Positions 43,701-64,000 of a stretch of 64,000 bases of DNA are shown here, piece after piece. A program made the translations under genes and the position numbers. The stretch is from positions 46,205 through 110,204 of the IMG/VR virus record IMGVR_UViG_3300020049_006862. One strand, written 5' to 3'. The notes below the pieces were generated by a model. The model searched no databases, was not told the origin of the DNA, and was given only the letters and a program-made list of their open reading frames with translations. The number at the start of each line of letters is the position of its first letter. The stretch's first letter is position 1. Origin of the DNA: a virus. Taxonomy: Duplodnaviria > Caudoviricetes.

Positions 43701-45818
43701 CGATAAGAAGGGCCCAATGTGTTAAGCCTAATGTACCAGTGATCGCAGTTACTTTACGATTGTTAACGTTTTCACGAGAGAAGAAGATATCCATCAGATA
43801 ATCTTTCAAGCGAGAAACAGTCAAAGCAGAATTGTAATATTCGCAATTATTATTATTCAGTTAGAGTCGTTAATTCTAACTCGGGAATGGTTACCCAGCT
43901 CATAGTTTCCTATGAGATTAGACTATATCATTTTCCTGTAGATGTTTATCTAAGGAAATTTCTCATTTCGAGTCACTTGACTCTACTCCCTTTCGGGATA
44001 GTCGTTGAAGGTTCCAATCATAAATTTTTTCTATATGCTTAAGAAAATCTTTAGGAGATTTAGTATACTTAGCTAGATTACAGTTTTGACAACAAGGTAC
44101 TACATTATCTTGTATGTATCCTAAATTGTTGTCAAGTCTATCTATTCCAGTATAATTATAGGTCATTAGTGATGTTCTAATACAGGTATTAGTTGGTTTA
44201 TCTCCACAGTATACACAAGAAGACGAAAACAATTTCGCTGCCTCCTCTAATGATAACGTAAATTCTAAACCTCTGTTTTTAGCACTTTTCCTATATCTAC
44301 AATATATAGTAGAATATTTTTCAGCACTGTTCATCTTTTGATCTCTTAAGAAGTCGTATCTACATTTTTGACATCCTGCAAAGCCTAGCTTTGCTAATGA
44401 CATACACGCTCTTGAAACAAAAGTAGTCGGGCCTTTAGCTGTATTTCCACAAGAACATTTTAGTATATATTGTCCTTTGTGACCTATTACAGTAAATTCA
44501 CCTATTTTAGTGCCTATTGGATATTTCATAATTTATTTTTTAGCTTCCCTGCTGATTGCCCCTATTTTTAGAATTGTTACAGTTTATTGTATCTAAAACT
44601 TAGCGGGGGGTCCCAGCAATTAGAGAAATTATTCGATTACTATTACTAGTAAAAGGGACCAAATATTAATCCAAGAATCTTTAAGTTGTTCGCGTACACC
44701 TGGCAGTGTGTTGTTCCCTTTCGTTCGTTAAACGAAAGGCGTACTATCCAACTTTAAATAGTACTGCCTTATATTACTATAAGGATCAGGTCATATCACC
44801 TTCCTATTAGGAAGTTTCCCGTTTCGGATTCACTTGAATCCTACGCCATAAAGGCTGACCGTCGAACGTTCCCTTTTCAGGGCTTCGCTGCTGATTGTCC
44901 TCTTCATAAGAAGTAGGAGATCCCAGACAATTAGAGAAATTTGCAATATTGTATTACTACAATATGGGGCCCAATTTGACCCGTTTTGATCCAGTAGCCT
45001 GACTGCGAAGGACGAGTTTGCTTGATACCTAACCAACCTTGATATTCCTGAGACATGTACATTTCAGAGTACATGCGAGATTCAGCCATAGGAAGGAAAG
45101 AGTTAACTTTCTTCATCTTCTGAGTGTGAGGATCAGTGTACAGGAATTCTACGCCCAATCGGCCGCCTTCTCTCCAAGCTTTGTCAGTGATCGTCAGTTT
45201 CTGAGCGAATTCACCAATTTGGCTTTCCAGTTTGAACAGGTTAGGAGATTGTTGTGTACCGAAGTATGGGTTAGCTTCTTGCTGAACAGAGGTCCATCCT
45301 TTAGAAAATTCACGACCTACTTCCAAAAGTGAAGGAGGGCAGAAAACTGTAGGATTGTCACCTTGCAGTTCGAGGGTGTAGATGTAACCTGTGCCATCTG
45401 GAACAGAATCACCGATGATAGCCATCGGGTAAGAGTTATCTTCACCAAGCAGAACATCTGGTTGTGCGTAATAGTCGATGTCCAATTTTACACGGAAACG
45501 TGTATTGTTTAAGCCCGGAGCGTCGTTGCCTGCTTCGAGATTCTCGAGAACAATAGCAATACGTTCTTCAGCTCCCTGCATAGTCCAGCGGAACACATCG
45601 CTGTTGATCATTTGAACATTGCCTGGGTTGATACCTTGAGCAGTCAGCAATTTACCTGTGAACAGGTCTGACTGAGAAGAATAAATTTTTGTGAGGGTGC
45701 CCATGAATTCATGCGGCTTGCCCGTGTCATAAGCAGCGCCAAGATAATTGGAGTCGATAAAATTACCCCCAAATCCTTGGTAGTGCTTGATAATCATGTT
45801 ACTTCTAGCGCTAGCCAT
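40706..45818 (-). CDS. Major capsid protein, six exons (489 aa spliced)
   Basis: Exons 45818-44979, 44703-44669, 43843-43725, 42929-42802, 41903-41580, 40729-40706 sum to 1470 nt, in frame: KTG|PGVREQLKDSWI|EYYN...GTLGS|IMFH...THY|YGPEG...TRCG|ELIYDFD*. Confidence 0.88.
40730..41579 (-). mobile_element. Group I intron 5 of MCP (850 nt)
   Basis: 5' exon ends in U, intron ends in G; P7 GCATA/TATGC; candidate internal guide AATTT-GCCTCAG lies near the 3' end of the ORF. Confidence 0.8.
40865..41551 (-). CDS. Intron-encoded HNH homing endonuclease
   Basis: CSCG, CSYCG, NGVDRIDSSKGY...NVAPSCKFCNRAK. Confidence 0.85.
   Translation of the reverse strand: MLKLKKQPKNFVESEMYNTTDYKEFIGLKYNELTVLSFPGYTLKKDKLKDYKIPVVEVKCSCGTIFKVQWDAVKNLKSKSCGHIHKFYYTDPYDCDVRGLYVRYRARAKKDNREFTITQDEFRSLIVSPCSYCGIKPSQIHRKTNCQASIPHNGVDRIDSSKGYVQGNVAPSCKFCNRAKSNSSLEEFNNYIIRLMKFASVKNRAKTVNGEIPNTVLSSEITKGSETV
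41904..42801 (-). mobile_element. Group I intron 4 of MCP (898 nt)
   Basis: P1 CACTAT/GTAGTG with U.G; TTGCTGGGA...CAATCAGCAG core; P7 GACTA/TAGTC; terminal G. Confidence 0.85.
41984..42664 (-). CDS. Intron-encoded LAGLIDADG homing endonuclease (226 aa, code 4)
   Basis: SMILGDG and LAI-W(TGA)-YMDDG motifs; second TGA near 42206; stop TAA inside the intron core. Confidence 0.85.
42930..43724 (-). mobile_element. Group I intron 3 of MCP (795 nt)
   Basis: P1 GGCT/GGCC; CTGCTGGGA...CAATCAGCAA core; P7 GATCA/TGATC; terminal G. Confidence 0.85.
42991..43617 (-). CDS. Intron-encoded HNH homing endonuclease (208 aa, code 4)
   Basis: N-terminal extension LGKLTI...GT-W(TGA)-EVQCSCG; CLYCG, NGVDRMDN, CCNVCNYMK. 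Confidence 0.85.
43844..44668 (-). mobile_element. Group I intron 2 of MCP (825 nt)
   Basis: P1 GGAT/GTCC; TTGCTGGGA...CAATCAGCAG core; P7 GACTA/TAGTC; terminal G. Confidence 0.85.
43918..44529 (-). CDS. Intron-encoded HNH homing endonuclease
   Basis: CSCG, CVYCG, GIDRLDNNLGY...NVVPCCQNCNLAK; ends at 43963 (TGA) or 43918 under code 4. Confidence 0.85.
44704..44978 (-). mobile_element. Group I intron 1 of MCP, ORF-less (275 nt)
   Basis: P1 GGGT/GCCC; TTGTCTGGGA...CAATCAGCAG core; P7 GGTCA/TGACC; terminal G. Confidence 0.85.
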
Positions 45819-49222: not shown

Positions 49223-52200
49223 CTATAAAAAATTGTCACTCGTTATACGAGCGTTCGGGAATACGAATTTATTAGCCGATATAAACTTGGTGATATCATC
49301 CACAATTTTACTATCTTCTATAATTGTTTTCTTGTATTGATTATGGGTTTCTATTAACCCTACAATACACCCCATGAATCCCATTATGGAGTCAAAGTTG
49401 CCTTCTAAATTAAAGGCAGCCATTTCTTGTAACAAGGCCCTGTCTCAGATAAAATCTATATTTCTATATGTTCTATCGTCCCTCTCAAACTTAACTTCAA
49501 GTAGCCAGTCGCGTATGTACTGAATGCCTTCCATCTTCATAACTCTAGAAGACATCGGATAACCATAAGTTACCGAAGGCCCGGTCATAAAAGATGCTTT
49601 CTTATTAAAGATAGTAGTAGGTTGTTTACAAAGCAAGTCTAACCTCTTTATCTTTTCGAAATACTCCTTCACGTTACCACGAACATTTTCGAAGTAGATC
49701 TTTGCGTTACCATAAAACAAAGAAAGCTTGTGAAGTATATCGTTCACTATATGCCTTCCCGCGTAGGGCCTACCTCTATATACTGCAACCAATTCAGCCG
49801 AGCCAATCGTAGAGGCGTACTTCTCCGTCTTAAGAACAAAGATAGTACCTAACGAAGAGCCTGAAGCATCATCACTTGCGTAAGGGTCATGCCCAATGAT
49901 ATAAGCTCCTGGAGGAACTTTACCGTCGATAACTTGAGGAAATTCGTAAACAACAACGCAACCTTCGCGGTTGTCAGTATTCTTGATAGGAAATGAGTTA
50001 ATCGGCTTAAGCTCGTTAGTAACATCTATCTTATAATCAACACCATTAGTGTCTTTTGCTTCTGGGTTAAAGAAGAGAGTAACTCTCTTCTCCATCAAGT
50101 TTAGAGAATCGGCGATATCAATCTGGTCAAGCCTTGCTCGTACTTCTGCTGTTGGAAATATATTACCTGAAGCAGAGAGAAACATTTCTGATGGAGTGAG
50201 AGGTCTGTTAATAATCTCAGCATCGAGTGCTACTGAAGCATTCTTTGCCTTCTTAAGTTTTGTTCTGTGAGCTTCCAAAAATCCCCTAGCAACTTCTACA
50301 TCAGTAAAGCCATTCTCATCTTTGAATTCATTCAAGCCAAGATAAGCAGGTACAAAGTACCCAATGGGGGAAGATCTCCATTCGTATAAATCGGGAAATT
50401 CTAAGCAATCGTAAGTCTCTGGATTGAAGAATATTTTTTGAGCGGCTAGGGTACCGCCCCCTGCCATATCCCCACCAGTTCCGATGAACATCATCGAACC
50501 AAACTTACGAGCACCATCTCTTTGAGTCTCTACGCAAGCTGCGTAAGTCTCTTCTAAGTTGTCAAAAAACCCTACCTCCTCAAACAGCAAAACCCCTGGT
50601 CGCGTACCATTGGCAGCGAAGGGGTTATCTTTGAAAGTTCTATTCTTAATAGTGGATTGAGAACCTACTCTTTTCCAAACTCCACCTACCTTTTTTGGAT
50701 AGTGAGCTTTTATTTCTTTACCTGGATCAAAAGATCCGGCCCATTTCTTTGCGAATGGTGCGGGGTAAGTTTTCTTTCCTATTTGACTAGTTCCCGGAAG
50801 GTTATCGAGAGCAATCTTAGTTTTTTGTAAAGTTTCTGAAGAGTATTTGGATTCGGCTGCACCGACTACTATTTCAGAAGTAAGAATAAATTCTGGATTT
50901 ATTTCGTATTTGACAGCTCCGTCAAATAGAAATTCGTGAGCGACTATACCAACACCAAGAGAATAAGATTTACCTAGCCGAAGCCCCTACTGTTCCCGGT
51001 CATCGTATAGTCTCTTAAACAATACGAATGATCTTGATCGGTTTCCACTCCATAATATGGAGCGTCAGTTGAGGCTTCGATTCTTAAACTTGATATTTTA
51101 TAATTCTTAACAGGATTAAAATCAGTTTTTTTCCTGTGAATTTGAACTGGTATCTTATTAATATCTCCAGATATTGTAATTGAATATTCTTTAGTGTTAT
51201 GTCTTTTACGATATTTAAAATTCGTATGAAACCCTAAAGAATTAGCTAATTCTTGAACTTGCTTAGCAAATCTTCCGTCTGCTTGATAAAATCTATATGC
51301 AGATATATCTAAAGTACCGTCAGTATCTAATAACCCTGCCAAAAGTTTCATTCTAACTTCTATCGAGTTGTTTAGGTATTCTTCAGGTATATGTTTATTG
51401 CCTAAAACTCTTAAACTTTTCAAAGAGTCAATAATATAATTCTTATCTTTTATAATATTTACTTTATAATTAGAAGAATTGGCATTTGACGAATAATTAT
51501 TCGAATACATAGATAATTTCCCCCCTATCTCATCTGCATATCTAGATAAGAAATACACAATTTCAATATCGGAAGTCGTAATAATCCTACTGTCTCTGTG
51601 CCCGTCTCCAAGCCATATACCTAAAAAATAAGGATCAAGAGGCACTTCTTGGTAAGGTAAGTCTACAGCATCTCTTTTAAATCCTTTATACCTGTTATTA
51701 AAGTGTTCAGTACATATACTGTTCTGTATCTCAAAGAGCTTCTCAGCTTTTATCTTTGTTCTTTTTCCTTTATCGAGAATTTCTAGCTCATGATCATGCG
51801 TAACGCTATAATCATCACCATTTGATTGACATACTCTATACATCCTAGCTTGTGGTCCACGAATTGTTCTTTTTACAATTCTAGGAACATCGTCTATACC
51901 CATTAATTCGTCCCCAATATTTATATCCTCAATGTTTTTGATACTGTTGTCGAACATGCGGACTTGAGTACCAATAGGATGACAGCCAAGCATCATCATG
52001 TTCTTGGCATCATTATTAAACAGAGGGTAACCAAGTGGCTGTTCTCTAAGCATCCGAAGATTTTCTCGAGCAGGAATATACCTTTTAAGTAATCCATTTT
52101 CAGGATTAATAGCATCAGGATATTCTTTAAGAACTGCTGCCGGGGGCTCAGTAATACCTAAGGCTTCCATCTCTTCTACGAAGCGCAAAGAGGTGAATTG

Positions 52201-52497
52201 GGTGTCTTCGGAAAACGACGAAAAGCCGCGAGCCTCGGCCCAATTGTAGAATAACTCCCACTCAAGGTCACGAAGATCCGGCTTTCCGAAGTACGGGCTA
52301 CGCCCGCGCTCTTTTCGTTTAATAGTTCCAAAATTAATATAGAAGTAAAGTTTACCCGGCATATATCTGCCGTGTGCCCAATGACCTTCTATACATCTCT
52401 TTTTTTGTTCCCGCCAAAAGGAAACAAAAGCAGGAGATAATGGATGATAGTTTGGTATGTCAACAATAAACTCACGAGGATTAATACTCGTAATCAT
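49223..52497 (-). CDS. terL: Terminase large subunit with intein, a frame break at Walker A, and one TGA
   Basis: N-terminal FWREQKKRCIEG / LYFYINFG; G|intein|SRGFG then TAG 50974; GKSY resumes in another frame; LFEEVG, IGTGG, IIGHDPY, YFEN, GNFD; TGA at 49445. Confidence 0.85.
50992..51984 (-). mobile_element. Intein with LAGLIDADG endonuclease (331 aa)
   Basis: Starts CHPIGT, has VTHDH block B, FLGIWLGDG and LLAGLLDTDG, ends TGN followed by Ser. Confidence 0.9.
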
Positions 52498-54100
52498 TAT
52501 TTTCTTCAACATATGGCGCTTCTCCAGAGGATATAATTCCATCTGTGAGCGCGATCATTGACGCTACTGAAGCAGCATTTTCCAAAGCTAATCGCAATAC
52601 CTTAGTAGGATCAATGACTCTACAGTCTTTAACATCTACATATTCCATTTTATTCACATCGAATAATTCGTTGTGAGTTTGGATGTGGTTACGAACTACT
52701 TCAGAGTTAACACCAGCATTAGCAAGTACGGTATTGAAAACACTTACAAGAGCTTTTTTAACACAATCAGCTCCAGCTTGTAAGACAGGTTCAACATCGA
52801 TAGCTGAAATAGCGTCGAGGTAAGAATACCCGCCGCCAATCGAAACACCTTCTGTAATTGCAGCTTTTGTTGCTTGCAGCGCATCGTCTACCCTATCTTT
52901 CTTTTCTTTTAGCTCTACTTCTGTATGAGCACCAAGGTTGATAACAGCAACTCCACCTGAAAGTTTTGCGATACGCTCAAGAAGTTTTTCTTGAACCCAT
53001 GCAAATTCGTTATGAGAAGCAGTTTCTAACTCAGCTTTCAAATTATCTAATCTCTTAGAAATAACTTCTTCAGCGCCTTTTCCACCGACAATACTCGTCT
53101 CGGAACGGCTTACTGAAACATTTGTTGCGCGGCCAAGATGTTTAAGTTCTACATCTTTAACTAACATTCCGGAATCCTCTGAAATCAAAGTTGCACCAGT
53201 CACGGCAGCGATGTCTTCTAACATTGACAATCGGCGATCACCTTGCGCTGGAGTTTTTACCGCACATATATTTAGACCCATTCGTACTTTATTGACTACC
53301 AGTAGGGAAAGTGCTTGCGCCTCTACTTCATCTGCTATAATTAGCATCTGACCTCCTGCCTGTACTACCTTTTCAACGATAGGCACAATTTCAGCTCCTA
53401 CGCGAAGTTTACGATCTGTTACGAAAATGTAAGGATTTTCTAGTTCGCATGTGAGCTTATCAAAATTATTTACGAAATGTGGAGATATCAATCCTCTGTC
53501 GAATGAATATCCTTTGGTTGTAGAAATATAATCTACAGTTCCTTTAGAATCTGCTACTGCTACCATGCCGGTAGTTCCTACTTCCTCCATTGCCTTACGA
53601 ATAAGCGCAGCAATAGCAGGATCGTTATTAGCAGATATATTTGCAATTTGTTCTACCTTGTCCATATCATTTCCGATAGAGGTAGAATTTGCTTTTAGAA
53701 ACTCGACCACTTGAGTTGTGGCGATGTCGATGCCTCTTTTTAAGTTAATGGGTGAGACTCCCATTTCAATTTGCTTTAGTGCGTTATCCAAAATCGCTTG
53801 AGCAAGAACTAAGGAAGTGGTTGTTCCATCTCCTACAGTTAATACAGTTCTAGCAGCAGCTTGAAGAGCCATTTGAGCTCCTAAGTTTTGTGCTGGATCT
53901 TTTAGCGAAATATGTTTAGCTACTGTTACGCCGTCTTTGGTCACATAAGGTGTGCCGAAAGAAGTGCGAAGTACTACGTTTCTTCCCTTTGGGCCTAAGG
54001 TAATCTTTACCATATTAGCCATCTGATCGACACCTTCTTTCAAAAGTTTGCGAGCAGCAGAAGAAGAATACAAGTTTGTTGCTTCTCTGATTGGTACCAT
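52481..54100 (-). CDS. groL: Phage chaperonin GroEL
   Basis: TLGPKGRNV, VTKDGVTVA, GDGTTT, ISANND, ERIAKLSGGVAVI, KKDRVDDAL, VIDP. Confidence 0.97.
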   Translation of the reverse strand: MVPIREATNLYSSSAARKLLKEGVDQMANMVKITLGPKGRNVVLRTSFGTPYVTKDGVTVAKHISLKDPAQNLGAQMALQAAARTVLTVGDGTTTSLVLAQAILDNALKQIEMGVSPINLKRGIDIATTQVVEFLKANSTSIGNDMDKVEQIANISANNDPAIAALIRKAMEEVGTTGMVAVADSKGTVDYISTTKGYSFDRGLISPHFVNNFDKLTCELENPYIFVTDRKLRVGAEIVPIVEKVVQAGGQMLIIADEVEAQALSLLVVNKVRMGLNICAVKTPAQGDRRLSMLEDIAAVTGATLISEDSGMLVKDVELKHLGRATNVSVSRSETSIVGGKGAEEVISKRLDNLKAELETASHNEFAWVQEKLLERIAKLSGGVAVINLGAHTEVELKEKKDRVDDALQATKAAITEGVSIGGGYSYLDAISAIDVEPVLQAGADCVKKALVSVFNTVLANAGVNSEVVRNHIQTHNELFDVNKMEYVDVKDCRVIDPTKVLRLALENAASVASMIALTDGIISSGEAPYVEENNDYEY

Positions 54101-54252: not shown

Positions 54253-54268
54253 TTAAAAATTAATTTAG

Positions 54269-54724
54269 TGGACATGAAGGGAGTTGAACCCTTGTATCTC
54301 ATATAATCTAATAATATATGTTTATAGGTTTAGGTCGAGAAGTATAGAGCAGGATTCGAACCTGCAGTCAGCATTTATCAAGGTGTTCCTACTATCCTTG
54401 TTTATGCACTGACGCCCTCGGTTATTAGGGCGTGTACACCATGTTCCACCTCCTATACTTCTACCACAATTTAAAAAAGGAGTGTACCGAAGCACACATC
54501 TCCACCACCCTATTTTGCTTAGAATAGGGAAACTAGCGTATGTATAATCAATCTATTTCTGTTTCGAGGTTAGACAACCCAAACTGTTCTCGAATAAGAG
54601 AACGAGTAAGACGAATACGAATATTTGCCGTTTGTTGTTCAATAGACATTGATAAGTCACTATACTATTATCGTGACACCTAAAATATATCCTCAACCAT
54701 ATAAGTCGATTCCATTACATGCCC
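54269..54724 (-). ncRNA. ssrA: tmRNA
   Basis: 5' GGGCATGTAATGGAATCGAC; 3' AAGGGTTCAACTCCCTT-CATGTCC-A; acceptor stem with G3.U; helix 2 CTTATAT/ATATGAG; pseudoknot GTCAC/GTGAC + GATAA/TTATC; candidate tag frame 54629-54570; CCA not encoded. Confidence 0.85.
54338..54462 (-). ncRNA. tRNA-like cloverleaf nested inside the tmRNA gene
   Basis: AGAA-GTATAGG/TCTATAC-TTCT stem, D arm GTG-GAACATGGTGTA-CAC, GCCCT/AGGGC arm with 8-nt loop, long variable arm, T arm GCAGG-TTCGAAT-CCTGC. Confidence 0.75.
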
Positions 54725-54848: not shown

Positions 54849-54936
54849 ATATAGTCGAGTGAGCCCCTCCCTTTATCCCAATCCGGAAACCATATATTGC
54901 TATAAGGCTTCCGGCATGTTTAAACATAATTCTTTT
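54849..54936. repeat. Inverted repeat copy 1 (88 bp, exact)
   Basis: Exact reverse complement of 63913..64000. Confidence 0.95.
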
Positions 54937-55121: not shown

Positions 55122-55223
55122 TGGCACGTCACATAGGAATCGAACCCATATAGTCTAGCGGTTGGAATGCTAGCGCGTACTGTTTTGAAGACAGTTCCCG
55201 TTCCGTAACGGTTAAAGTGACGT
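55122..55223 (-). tRNA. tRNA with UCA anticodon (opal decoder), long variable arm
   Basis: ACGTCAC/GTGACGT-G-CCA; ACTGT-CT-TCA-AA-ACAGT; T arm ATGGG-TTCGATT-CCTAT; D arm CCGTT-ACGG-AACGG. Confidence 0.9.
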
Positions 55224-63912: not shown

Positions 63913-64000
63913 AAAAGAATTATGTTTAAACATGCCGGAAGCCTTATAGCAATATATGGTTTCCGGATTGGGATAAAGGGAGGGGCTCACTCGACTATAT
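63913..64000. repeat. Inverted repeat copy 2 (truncated by window end)
   Basis: Exact reverse complement of 54849..54936. Confidence 0.95.

What the first reader, a model, noticed from the sequence alone, without database searches (positions are those of the whole stretch)
50960..50995. TerL Walker A broken by GGC-UA-GGU: candidate programmed 5-nt stop-hop
Seen: just after the intein the mRNA reads AGU AGG GGC UUC GGC UAG GUA AAU CUU, and the protein resumes as GGU AAA UCU UAU in another frame with no nearby start. Take-off at GGC facing UAG and landing on GGU 5 nt on (the same tRNA-Gly reads both) gives exactly GSRGFGKSY. A small cUUCGg hairpin overlaps the site. Established: matched-codon hopping over a stop occurs, as in T4 gene 60. 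Both halves of this essential gene look intact. Alternatives are an assembly error or a dead allele.
Basis: partly seen in the sequence, partly recalled or inferred. Interest (0 to 1): 0.8.

Follow-up and report, generated by a model that had tools for sequence, protein, structure and literature searches.

The report
Five-base stop-hop gap in terminase
The only DNA-packaging motor gene of this uncultured large phage is broken in its ATP-binding loop by five extra bases (a stop codon plus two), placed so that a ribosome hopping from one glycine codon to the next would restore the enzyme; this would be a rare natural case of very short translational bypassing, but it rests on one metagenomic genome.

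Summary
Observation confirmed. On the minus strand terL reads AGU AGG GGC UUC GGC UAG GU AAA UCU. Frame A stops at UAG (50976-50974), five codons after a 331-aa LAGLIDADG intein. The rest of TerL continues in the -1 frame with no start codon for 132 codons.

About 150 relatives have an unbroken Walker A, including the closest phage with the same intein (TGN|SRGFGKSYS). So the 5 nt are an insertion private to this lineage. Leaving them out gives the family consensus GSRGFGKSYS.

It is the only frameshift-like break in a 110-kb contig that holds an unbroken 6180-codon ORF. A second assembly carries it identically. Only 0.33% of random 5-nt insertions would give this hop geometry.

Streptomyces phage phiHau3 terL has the same arrangement: GGC take-off, GGU landing, Lys resumed, motif KGWG|KD. 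Its bypass is supported by mass spectrometry.

Best reading (about 0.57): a real insertion decoded by a +5 hop of peptidyl-tRNA-Gly over UAG.

Weaknesses:
- it is a singleton;
- no read or contig from another sample spans the site;
- no stimulatory signal is demonstrable;
- "programmed" is not shown.

This scan has noted similar P-loop micro-gaps on other DNA; I did not check those.

The parts
51985..52542 (-). terL N-extein (186 aa from the ATG at 52542; homologues suggest the true start may be the ATG at 52497)
   Evidence: phrog_6681 terminase large subunit, profile positions 78-192. 49% identity to the N-termini of full-length intein-less TerL proteins P0025, P0029 and P0057.
50992..51984 (-). 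Intein, 331 aa, from Cys1 (CHPIG...) to ...YTMTGN, with a LAGLIDADG homing endonuclease; inserted in Walker A between G and SRGFGKS
   Evidence: Pfam Hom_end_hint, LAGLIDADG_3 and Hom_end. Coordinates. The same intein at the same site occurs in P0003/L085 (56% identity).
50977..50991 (-). First five C-extein codons, AGU AGG GGC UUC GGC = SRGFG; the last GGC (50979-50977) is the proposed take-off codon
   Evidence: Aligns with SRGFG of P0003 and with the family consensus.
50972..50976 (-). The 5 extra nucleotides, UAGGU: in-frame UAG stop (50976-50974) overlapping the proposed landing codon GGU (50974-50972)
   Evidence: Absent from L085, from 80 IMG/VR relatives, from 2 groundwater contigs and from 68 pattern hits.
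49223..50971 (-). Rest of the terL C-extein, resuming at AAA (Lys of GKS): Walker B/catalytic Glu (LLFEEVG), nuclease domain (IIGHDPY), one in-frame TGA at 49447-49445 read as Trp, and final stop TAG at 49225-49223
   Evidence: phrog_6681 E 1.5e-64. Alignment A2 with invariant residues. TGA position and stops. Homologue P0057 has W at the TGA position.
50940..51014 (-). 75-nt imperfect hairpin (8+7+7 bp) with the take-off/stop/landing triplets in its 16-nt apical loop; possible but unproven stimulator
   Evidence: MFE -25.3 kcal/mol, z -2.47, 3 of 200 shuffles as stable. The equivalent region of the uninterrupted L085 has z -0.93.

Best explanation
The 5 nt (UAGGU) are a real, lineage-specific insertion in the P-loop coding sequence of the phage's single terL gene. 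The insertion lies 15 nt downstream of an intein.

Functional TerL is made as follows. The ribosome reaches GGC (the Gly before the P-loop Lys) with UAG in the A site. The peptidyl-tRNA-Gly (GCC anticodon, which reads GGC and GGU) unpairs and re-pairs 5 nt downstream on GGU. Decoding resumes at AAA, giving ...SRGFG-KSYS.... Ribosomes that terminate at UAG release N-extein-intein-SRGFG, which can still yield the free homing endonuclease.

Full-length TerL also needs protein splicing and reading of one TGA as Trp.

Shown here: the sequence; that the 5 nt are extra; that only the hop restores the invariant P-loop; that the rest of the gene and the genome are intact.

Inferred: that the hop occurs and supplies enough TerL, and that the insert persists because it is tolerated. 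It may also be favoured by disrupting a homing-endonuclease target, or by being linked to the intein.
For: (1) Geometry. GGC | UAG | GGU overlap, then AAA. Removing 5 nt reproduces GSRGFGKSYS, which is the consensus of the family and the exact sequence of the closest intein-bearing relative.

(2) Only 0.33% of random 5-nt insertions in this gene give a perfect stop-hop that restores the protein.

(3) Sequence quality. Under TGA=sense, this is the only junction in 110 kb where a long downstream frame lacks a nearby start, and a 6180-codon ORF is unbroken. A second assembly (JGI 3300020047, 109,924 bp) is 100% identical over 7.5 kb, including the 5 nt.

(4) Both halves are intact. All family-invariant residues are present, and the hop-restored C-extein is open to its stop. 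There is only one terL in the record.

(5) Near-identical (99-100%) terL fragments occur in freshwater, sludge, soil and compost runs from 2018 to 2025. Strain differences are mostly synonymous in both frames. The lineage is therefore alive, although none of these pieces spans the site.

(6) Precedent. phiHau3 terL reads AAG GGT TGG GGC | TTACTCCGGT | AAG. It has the same take-off GGC, landing GGT and resumed Lys, after a basic-G-aromatic-G peptide. Bypass at this site with UAA in the A site was confirmed by a junction peptide in E. coli (PMC10732093). Stop-hops with matched codons flanking a stop, including +5 and +6, are known from synthetic constructs (PMC5009743).

(7) UAG is a genuine stop in this phage: 15 of 75 genes end in it, and so does terL itself. 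A pause at the A site is therefore expected.
Against: The gap is a singleton. It is absent from L085/P0003, from 80 IMG/VR relatives and from 2 groundwater contigs. A variable-gap pattern scan found 0 gapped against 68 ungapped sites, so there is no evolutionary persistence to show selection for it.

The two assemblies are 100% identical and may not be independent.

No stimulatory signal is demonstrable:
- the UUCG hairpin is insignificant;
- the upstream AGGGG cannot be invoked as a Shine-Dalgarno stimulator, because this phage's genes lack SD motifs (5 of 75, below background);
- the larger hairpin is only modestly unusual (z -2.5).

From memory, unstimulated stop-hops in E. coli run at around 1% or less, which may or may not suffice for a packaging ATPase.
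Confidence: 0.57

Rival explanations
1. The insertion is real in the DNA but is simply a lethal or defective mutation. This genotype makes no functional TerL: it is a recently inactivated allele, a defective genome complemented by co-infecting wild type, or a decaying element. The hop-like geometry is then coincidence.
For: No relative carries the gap. A very recent mutation would leave the rest of the gene intact, as observed. The record is only about 66% complete, and its lifestyle is unknown.
Against: A random 5-nt insertion has only a 0.33% chance of this geometry. It also falls on the same G|K junction, with the same codon pair, as the phiHau3 bypass. The genotype is the consensus of the largest contig of its assembly. 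Every other gene junction in the record looks intact. A terL-null lytic phage cannot propagate, so it should not dominate a population.
Confidence: 0.25
2. Assembly or sequencing artefact: the phage's true terL lacks the 5 nt.
For: The sequence comes from a metagenome and has never been validated by reads here. The two contigs that agree may derive from the same data. The contig end carries an 88-bp inverted duplicate that looks like an assembly artefact.
Against: The insert is a non-repetitive, non-homopolymer 5-mer, which is not a typical error type. No other frameshift occurs in 110 kb, including an 18.5-kb ORF. An error would not be expected to create a stop plus a matched Gly codon.
Confidence: 0.1
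3. The frame is restored by a -1 ribosomal shift (tRNA-Gly GGC to GGG at A-GGG-GC), or by RNA polymerase adding one G in the GGGG run. Either gives ...SRGLRLGKSYS....
For: A run of four G lies at 50987-50984, inside the 13-nt overlap of the two frames. Frame B is open from 50986.
Against: The product would have two extra residues inside the P-loop and would lose the aromatic residue. All of about 150 homologues keep the spacing G-x-R-x-x-GK[ST] without length variation. There is no X XXY YYZ heptamer.
Confidence: 0.05

Closest known systems
Candidate translational bypassing in the large terminase of Streptomyces phage phiHau3 (also prophage StrepC.1 and an S. catenulae prophage); Smith et al. 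2013; PMC10732093
   Same: A short frame-breaking insert in terL, absent from relatives. Take-off is on GGC and landing on GGU, with a Lys codon resumed. The site follows a basic-G-aromatic-G nascent peptide (KGWG|KD against RGFG|KS). The argument that a +/-1 shift would add residues to an invariant junction is the same. With UAA in the A site, a junction peptide was seen in E. coli.
   Different: The phiHau3 gaps are 10 nt (7 nt in the prophages) and start with the rare sense codon UUA, proposed to sense host tRNA-bldA status. Here the gap is 5 nt, starts with a true stop, and the stop overlaps the landing codon. The TerL family is different (hhalign finds no similarity). The host type is SD-less, with TGA read as Trp. 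The site lies 15 nt from an intein. That phiHau3's GWGKD is its Walker A is my reading of the motif pattern, not something tested.
Synthetic 'stop-hops' in E. coli (Weiss et al. 1987, +5 and +6 hops; reviewed in PMC5009743)
   Same: Matched codons flank a stop codon. The peptidyl-tRNA re-pairs a few nucleotides downstream, and a slow-to-decode A-site codon is the trigger.
   Different: Those were engineered constructs with low efficiency. The review states that no natural stop-hop occurrences are known for the in-frame type. This would be a natural, frame-restoring one in an essential gene.
Phage T4 gene 60 50-nt bypass and its MobA homing-endonuclease cassette
   Same: A Gly take-off codon is followed by UAG, with a matched Gly landing codon. 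The insert sits in a phage ATPase-related gene next to a selfish homing element. In T4 the insert is thought to protect against the endonuclease.
   Different: The T4 gap is 50 nt and needs a take-off stem-loop, a nascent-peptide signal and other elements for 30-50% efficiency. Here the gap is 5 nt, no such signals are demonstrable, and the selfish element is an intein rather than a free-standing endonuclease.
prfB (RF2) programmed +1 frameshift
   Same: An in-frame stop codon in the A site drives re-pairing of the P-site tRNA. A G-rich AGGGG lies just upstream (spacer 4 nt here, 3 nt in prfB).
   Different: prfB shifts +1 onto an overlapping codon and depends on SD:anti-SD pairing. Genes of this phage show no SD usage, and the shift needed here is +5 onto a non-overlapping codon.

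Membership tests
Terminase large subunit (phrog_6681-type TerL) | Significant profile match over the ATPase and nuclease domains | tested here: met
   phrog_6681: N-extein E 3.2e-15 (profile 78-192) and C-extein E 1.5e-64 (profile 224-687). 47-61% identity to 750-aa full-length homologues.
Terminase large subunit (phrog_6681-type TerL) | Walker A G-x-x-x-x-G-K-[ST] encoded in one reading frame | tested here: not met
   The motif is split in two ways: G | intein | SRGFG, then UAGGU, then KS in the -1 frame. It is complete only after splicing plus a +5 hop.
Terminase large subunit (phrog_6681-type TerL) | Walker B/catalytic Glu and RNase H-like nuclease acidic residues | tested here: met
   LLFEEVG (E136, E137) and IIGHDPY...DD (D367, D372) fall in columns of alignment A2 that are invariant or at least 90% conserved.
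Intein with LAGLIDADG homing endonuclease | Hint N- and C-terminal splicing blocks, Cys1, terminal Asn, +1 Ser/Thr/Cys, and an endonuclease domain | tested here: met
   Pfam Hom_end_hint 9.9e-12, LAGLIDADG_3 3.8e-11, Hom_end 3.2e-7. Cys1 CHPIG, TxxH (VTHDH), terminal GN followed by Ser. The penultimate residue is Gly rather than His, as in the homologous intein of P0003. Splicing activity was not tested.
Translational bypassing (hop) site | Take-off and landing codons readable by the same peptidyl-tRNA, in different frames, non-overlapping | tested here: met
   GGC (50979-77) and GGU (50974-72), 5 nt apart. One tRNA-Gly(GCC) reads both; this is established wobble knowledge.
Translational bypassing (hop) site | Stop or slow-to-decode codon immediately 3' of the take-off codon | tested here: met
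   UAG at 50976-74. TAG ends 15 of 75 genes in this phage, so it is a functional stop.
Translational bypassing (hop) site | Bypass, and not a +/-1 shift, restores a conserved protein sequence | tested here: met
   The hop gives GSRGFGKSYS, the family consensus. A -1 shift gives SRGLRLGKS, with two extra residues never seen in about 150 homologues.
Translational bypassing (hop) site | The gap is maintained in related genomes while the gene stays under selection | tested here: not met
   0 of 80 IMG/VR relatives, 0 of 2 groundwater contigs, and not in L085. Pattern scans gave 0 gapped against 68 ungapped. No relative closer than about 68% identity exists in the collections.
Translational bypassing (hop) site | Stimulatory signals (mRNA structure, nascent peptide, SD-like element) | tested here: inconclusive
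   UUCG mini-hairpin not significant. 75-nt hairpin z -2.47. SD usage absent in this phage. The nascent peptide RGFG resembles phiHau3 KGWG, but its effect is untested.
Translational bypassing (hop) site | Full-length trans-frame protein with the predicted junction peptide | not testable with these tools
   Needs a reporter assay and mass spectrometry.

The most novel reading that the evidence does not exclude
P-loop coding DNA of phage ATPases is a battleground for homing endonucleases. This TerL family alone has intein sites at G|SRGFGKS, at GK|S/T (3 nt from this gap) and at GG|TLDAQ. On this reading, minimal stop-initiated micro-gaps such as this 5-nt UAGGU are selected immunity scars. They destroy an endonuclease target yet remain decodable, because the Gly codons of the P-loop followed by a stop form an intrinsic hop site. 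That would make very short translational bypassing a recurrent, natural and adaptive decoding mode in phages rather than a curiosity. Such gaps could also spread by hitch-hiking with the adjacent intein.
Probability: 0.2. Interest if true: 0.85.

Novelty: new variant of a known kind. Interest (0 to 1): 0.6.

Why it matters
If the hop is real, this is the shortest natural frame-restoring bypass in an essential gene. It would be a natural stop-hop, so far known mainly from synthetic constructs, and a second TerL family after phiHau3 interrupted at the G|K junction of what looks by motif pattern like the same P-loop. That would point to a general rule: Gly-rich P-loop codons plus a stop make a usable hop site.

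It also bears on three other matters:
- Annotation pipelines would call such terL genes pseudogenes or split genes.
- One protein may need three stacked recoding or processing steps (TGA as Trp, protein splicing, hop).
- It adds to the arms race between phages and the homing elements that target conserved ATPase motifs.

If it is only a dead allele or an artefact, it has no wider importance.

Tried and rejected
1. Read-level confirmation. One run search and one laying of Logan contigs from four runs gave no contig bridging 50960-50995; the nearest piece ends at 50982. No RNA holder was listed. This counts neither for nor against.

2. Strain-level allele search in IMG/VR with a variable-gap pattern: 0 hits. 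Near-identical records appear to be withheld by the tools, and 'relatives' is not available for virus records.

3. TAG read as sense. Frame A then runs into TAA 24 codons later with no homology (read directly from the sequence). ORF statistics do not improve. Rejected.

4. Internal restart. There is no ATG/GTG/TTG in frame B for 132 codons, and a TerL lacking half its P-loop makes no sense. Rejected.

5. SD-like AGGGG as a prfB-type stimulator. The phage shows no SD usage. Not invoked.

6. UUCG hairpin as a signal. Not significant, and present in the uninterrupted relative.

7. Search for analogous gaps after an intein (AACAGY... pattern). The single hit is a tRNA-like sequence, not terL.

8. 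Other hop-like junctions in this genome. None is credible. The AAC-TAA-C candidate at window 29082 lies inside a 754-aa ORF.

9. Alignment of phiHau3-type TerL to this family, to prove the positions are equivalent. hhalign, PDB and Pfam gave nothing. The equivalence rests on motif pattern only.

10. BLASTN of the locus against cultured phages: no match.

Full report
**What is there.** The window is the 3' 64 kb of a 110,204-bp IMG/VR virus record, estimated 66% complete. On the minus strand, after GroEL (52481..54100), lies the phage's only terL.

Frame A (52542..50974) encodes three things in order. First comes a 186-aa N-extein. Next is a 331-aa intein with Hint and LAGLIDADG domains, from Cys1 CHPIG to YTMTGN. 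Last are the five codons AGU AGG GGC UUC GGC (SRGFG) followed by UAG.

The remaining 582 codons of TerL lie in the -1 frame. They start with GGU AAA UCU UAU (GKSY). That frame is closed by a stop just upstream (50989-87) and has no start codon for 132 codons.

**The 5 nt are an insertion.** Full-length homologues of 748-768 aa read MMGSRGFGKSYSV without interruption.

The closest relative with the same intein at the same site is P0003/L085. It is 56% identical and syntenic (GroEL-terL-portal). It reads ACT GGA AAC | AGT CGC GGC TTC GGA AAG TCG, that is TGN|SRGFGKS.

All 80 IMG/VR relatives and two groundwater contigs have a continuous P-loop of invariant length. A pattern scan allowing 1-15 extra bases at the G|K junction found none. 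The same pattern without a gap found 68.

So UAGGU (50976-50972) is private to this lineage. No relative closer than about 68% identity exists in the collections.

**It is unlikely to be an error.** Reading TGA as sense raises long-ORF coverage from 68.7 to 93.1 kb and produces a 6180-codon ORF. TGA aligns with Trp in homologues.

Under that code the terL junction is the only place in 110 kb where a long ORF continues in another frame without a start. A JGI contig from sample 3300020047 (109,924 bp, the largest of its assembly) is 100% identical over 7.5 kb, including the 5 nt. Its independence is uncertain. The insert is not a homopolymer or a repeat.

**Which decoding works.** The two frames overlap for only 13 nt.
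- A -1 shift, or one extra transcribed G in the GGGG run, would give SRGLRLGKS. That puts two extra residues into a loop whose length never varies.
- TAG read as sense runs into TAA without homology.
- A +5 re-pairing of peptidyl-tRNA-Gly from GGC to GGU, with UAG in the A site, gives exactly the consensus P-loop.

In a simulation, only 0.33% of random 5-nt insertions in this gene gave such a perfect stop-hop. TAG is a real stop here: it ends 15 of 75 genes and terL itself.

**Precedent.** I read the phiHau3 terL g6/g7 junction from NC_018836: AAG GGT TGG GGC | TTACTCCGGT | AAG GAC. It has take-off GGC, landing GGT and a resumed Lys, after KGWG. Here the junction follows RGFG.

For that site, with UAA replacing UUA, a junction peptide proved bypassing in E. 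coli. Full-length product was seen in Streptomyces (PMC10732093). Stop-hops with matched codons around a stop are known from synthetic constructs. T4 gene 60 is the classic long bypass linked to a homing endonuclease (PMC5009743).

**Signals.**
- The cUUCGg hairpin is 3 bp and not better than shuffles. It also occurs in L085, because it encodes G-F-G.
- A 75-nt imperfect hairpin places the site in its apical loop (z -2.47). The equivalent region of L085 has z -0.93. This is suggestive only.
- The upstream AGGGG resembles the prfB SD element. This phage's genes lack SD motifs (5 of 75), so I do not invoke it.

**Is the lineage alive?** Logan contigs from freshwater, sludge, soil and compost runs hold 150-300-nt terL fragments at 99-100% identity. 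Strain differences are mostly synonymous in both frames. None spans the gap, so they do not show that the gapped allele is the viable one.

**Context.** The family has further intein sites: GK|S/T in L047 and P0223, 3 nt from this gap, and GG|TLDAQ in P0205. A 5-nt insert would disrupt the target of a site-b endonuclease. It would also be co-converted with the adjacent intein. Both ideas are speculative.

**Earlier notes.** Earlier notes of this scan report similar stop-initiated micro-gaps in P-loops of other phages. I did not verify them and do not count them as evidence.

**Verdict.** The hop is the only decoding consistent with a functional enzyme, and it closely parallels a published case.

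It remains a singleton without read-level or protein evidence. Confidence in a real hop is about 0.57. The rivals are a dead allele (0.25), an artefact (0.10) and a -1 shift (0.05).

Noticed in passing
window 49445-49447 (minus strand) and the whole record: terL has an in-frame TGA where homologue P0057 has Trp, and relative P0205 ends at the same spot. Relative L002 has a stop where all others have Trp (IRDWLLE). Treating TGA as sense raises ORFs of 200 aa or more from 68.7 to 93.1 kb and yields a 6180-aa ORF. In long ORFs there are 108 TGA against 321 TGG. The phage evidently reads TGA as Trp.
   Followed up: partly
window 54266-54724 (minus strand): Rfam tmRNA (RF00023) match, 49.2 bits against a gathering score of 47, between the genes flanking GroEL. 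ARAGORN does not call it. Neither ARAGORN nor Rfam (gathering threshold) finds a tRNA at 55122-55223, where another first-stage note proposes a UCA tRNA.
   Followed up: partly
window 44767-44988 (minus strand): Group I intron (RF00028, 61.8 bits) in the capsid-gene region. This agrees with another first-stage note that the major capsid gene is intron-rich.
   Followed up: no
whole record (75 long ORFs): Shine-Dalgarno-like motifs are almost absent upstream of start codons (5 of 75, below the 11% background), and upstream regions are A-rich. Relative L085 has Crass_capsid Pfam hits. This suggests a Bacteroidota-type host with SD-independent initiation.
   Followed up: partly
window 54849-54936 and 63913-64000: An exact 88-bp inverted duplicate reaches the end of the record. 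It may be a fold-back assembly artefact at the contig end rather than biology. The JGI twin contig (L003) also carries the 54849-54936 copy, at L003 607-694.
   Followed up: no
L047:1-160; P0223 aa 60-125; P0205 aa 180-230: The same TerL family carries inteins at two further sites: between K and S/T of GK[ST] (...THN|S/TY...) and before TLDAQ (...VTHN|TLDAQ). That makes three intein homing sites in one ATPase domain, two of them in the P-loop.
   Followed up: partly
G000:C1:8416-8490 (outside the window): The only tRNA that ARAGORN finds in the 110-kb record is called tRNA-Cys with anticodon ACA, which is unusual. No TGA-suppressor tRNA was detected in the available 66% of the genome.
   Followed up: no
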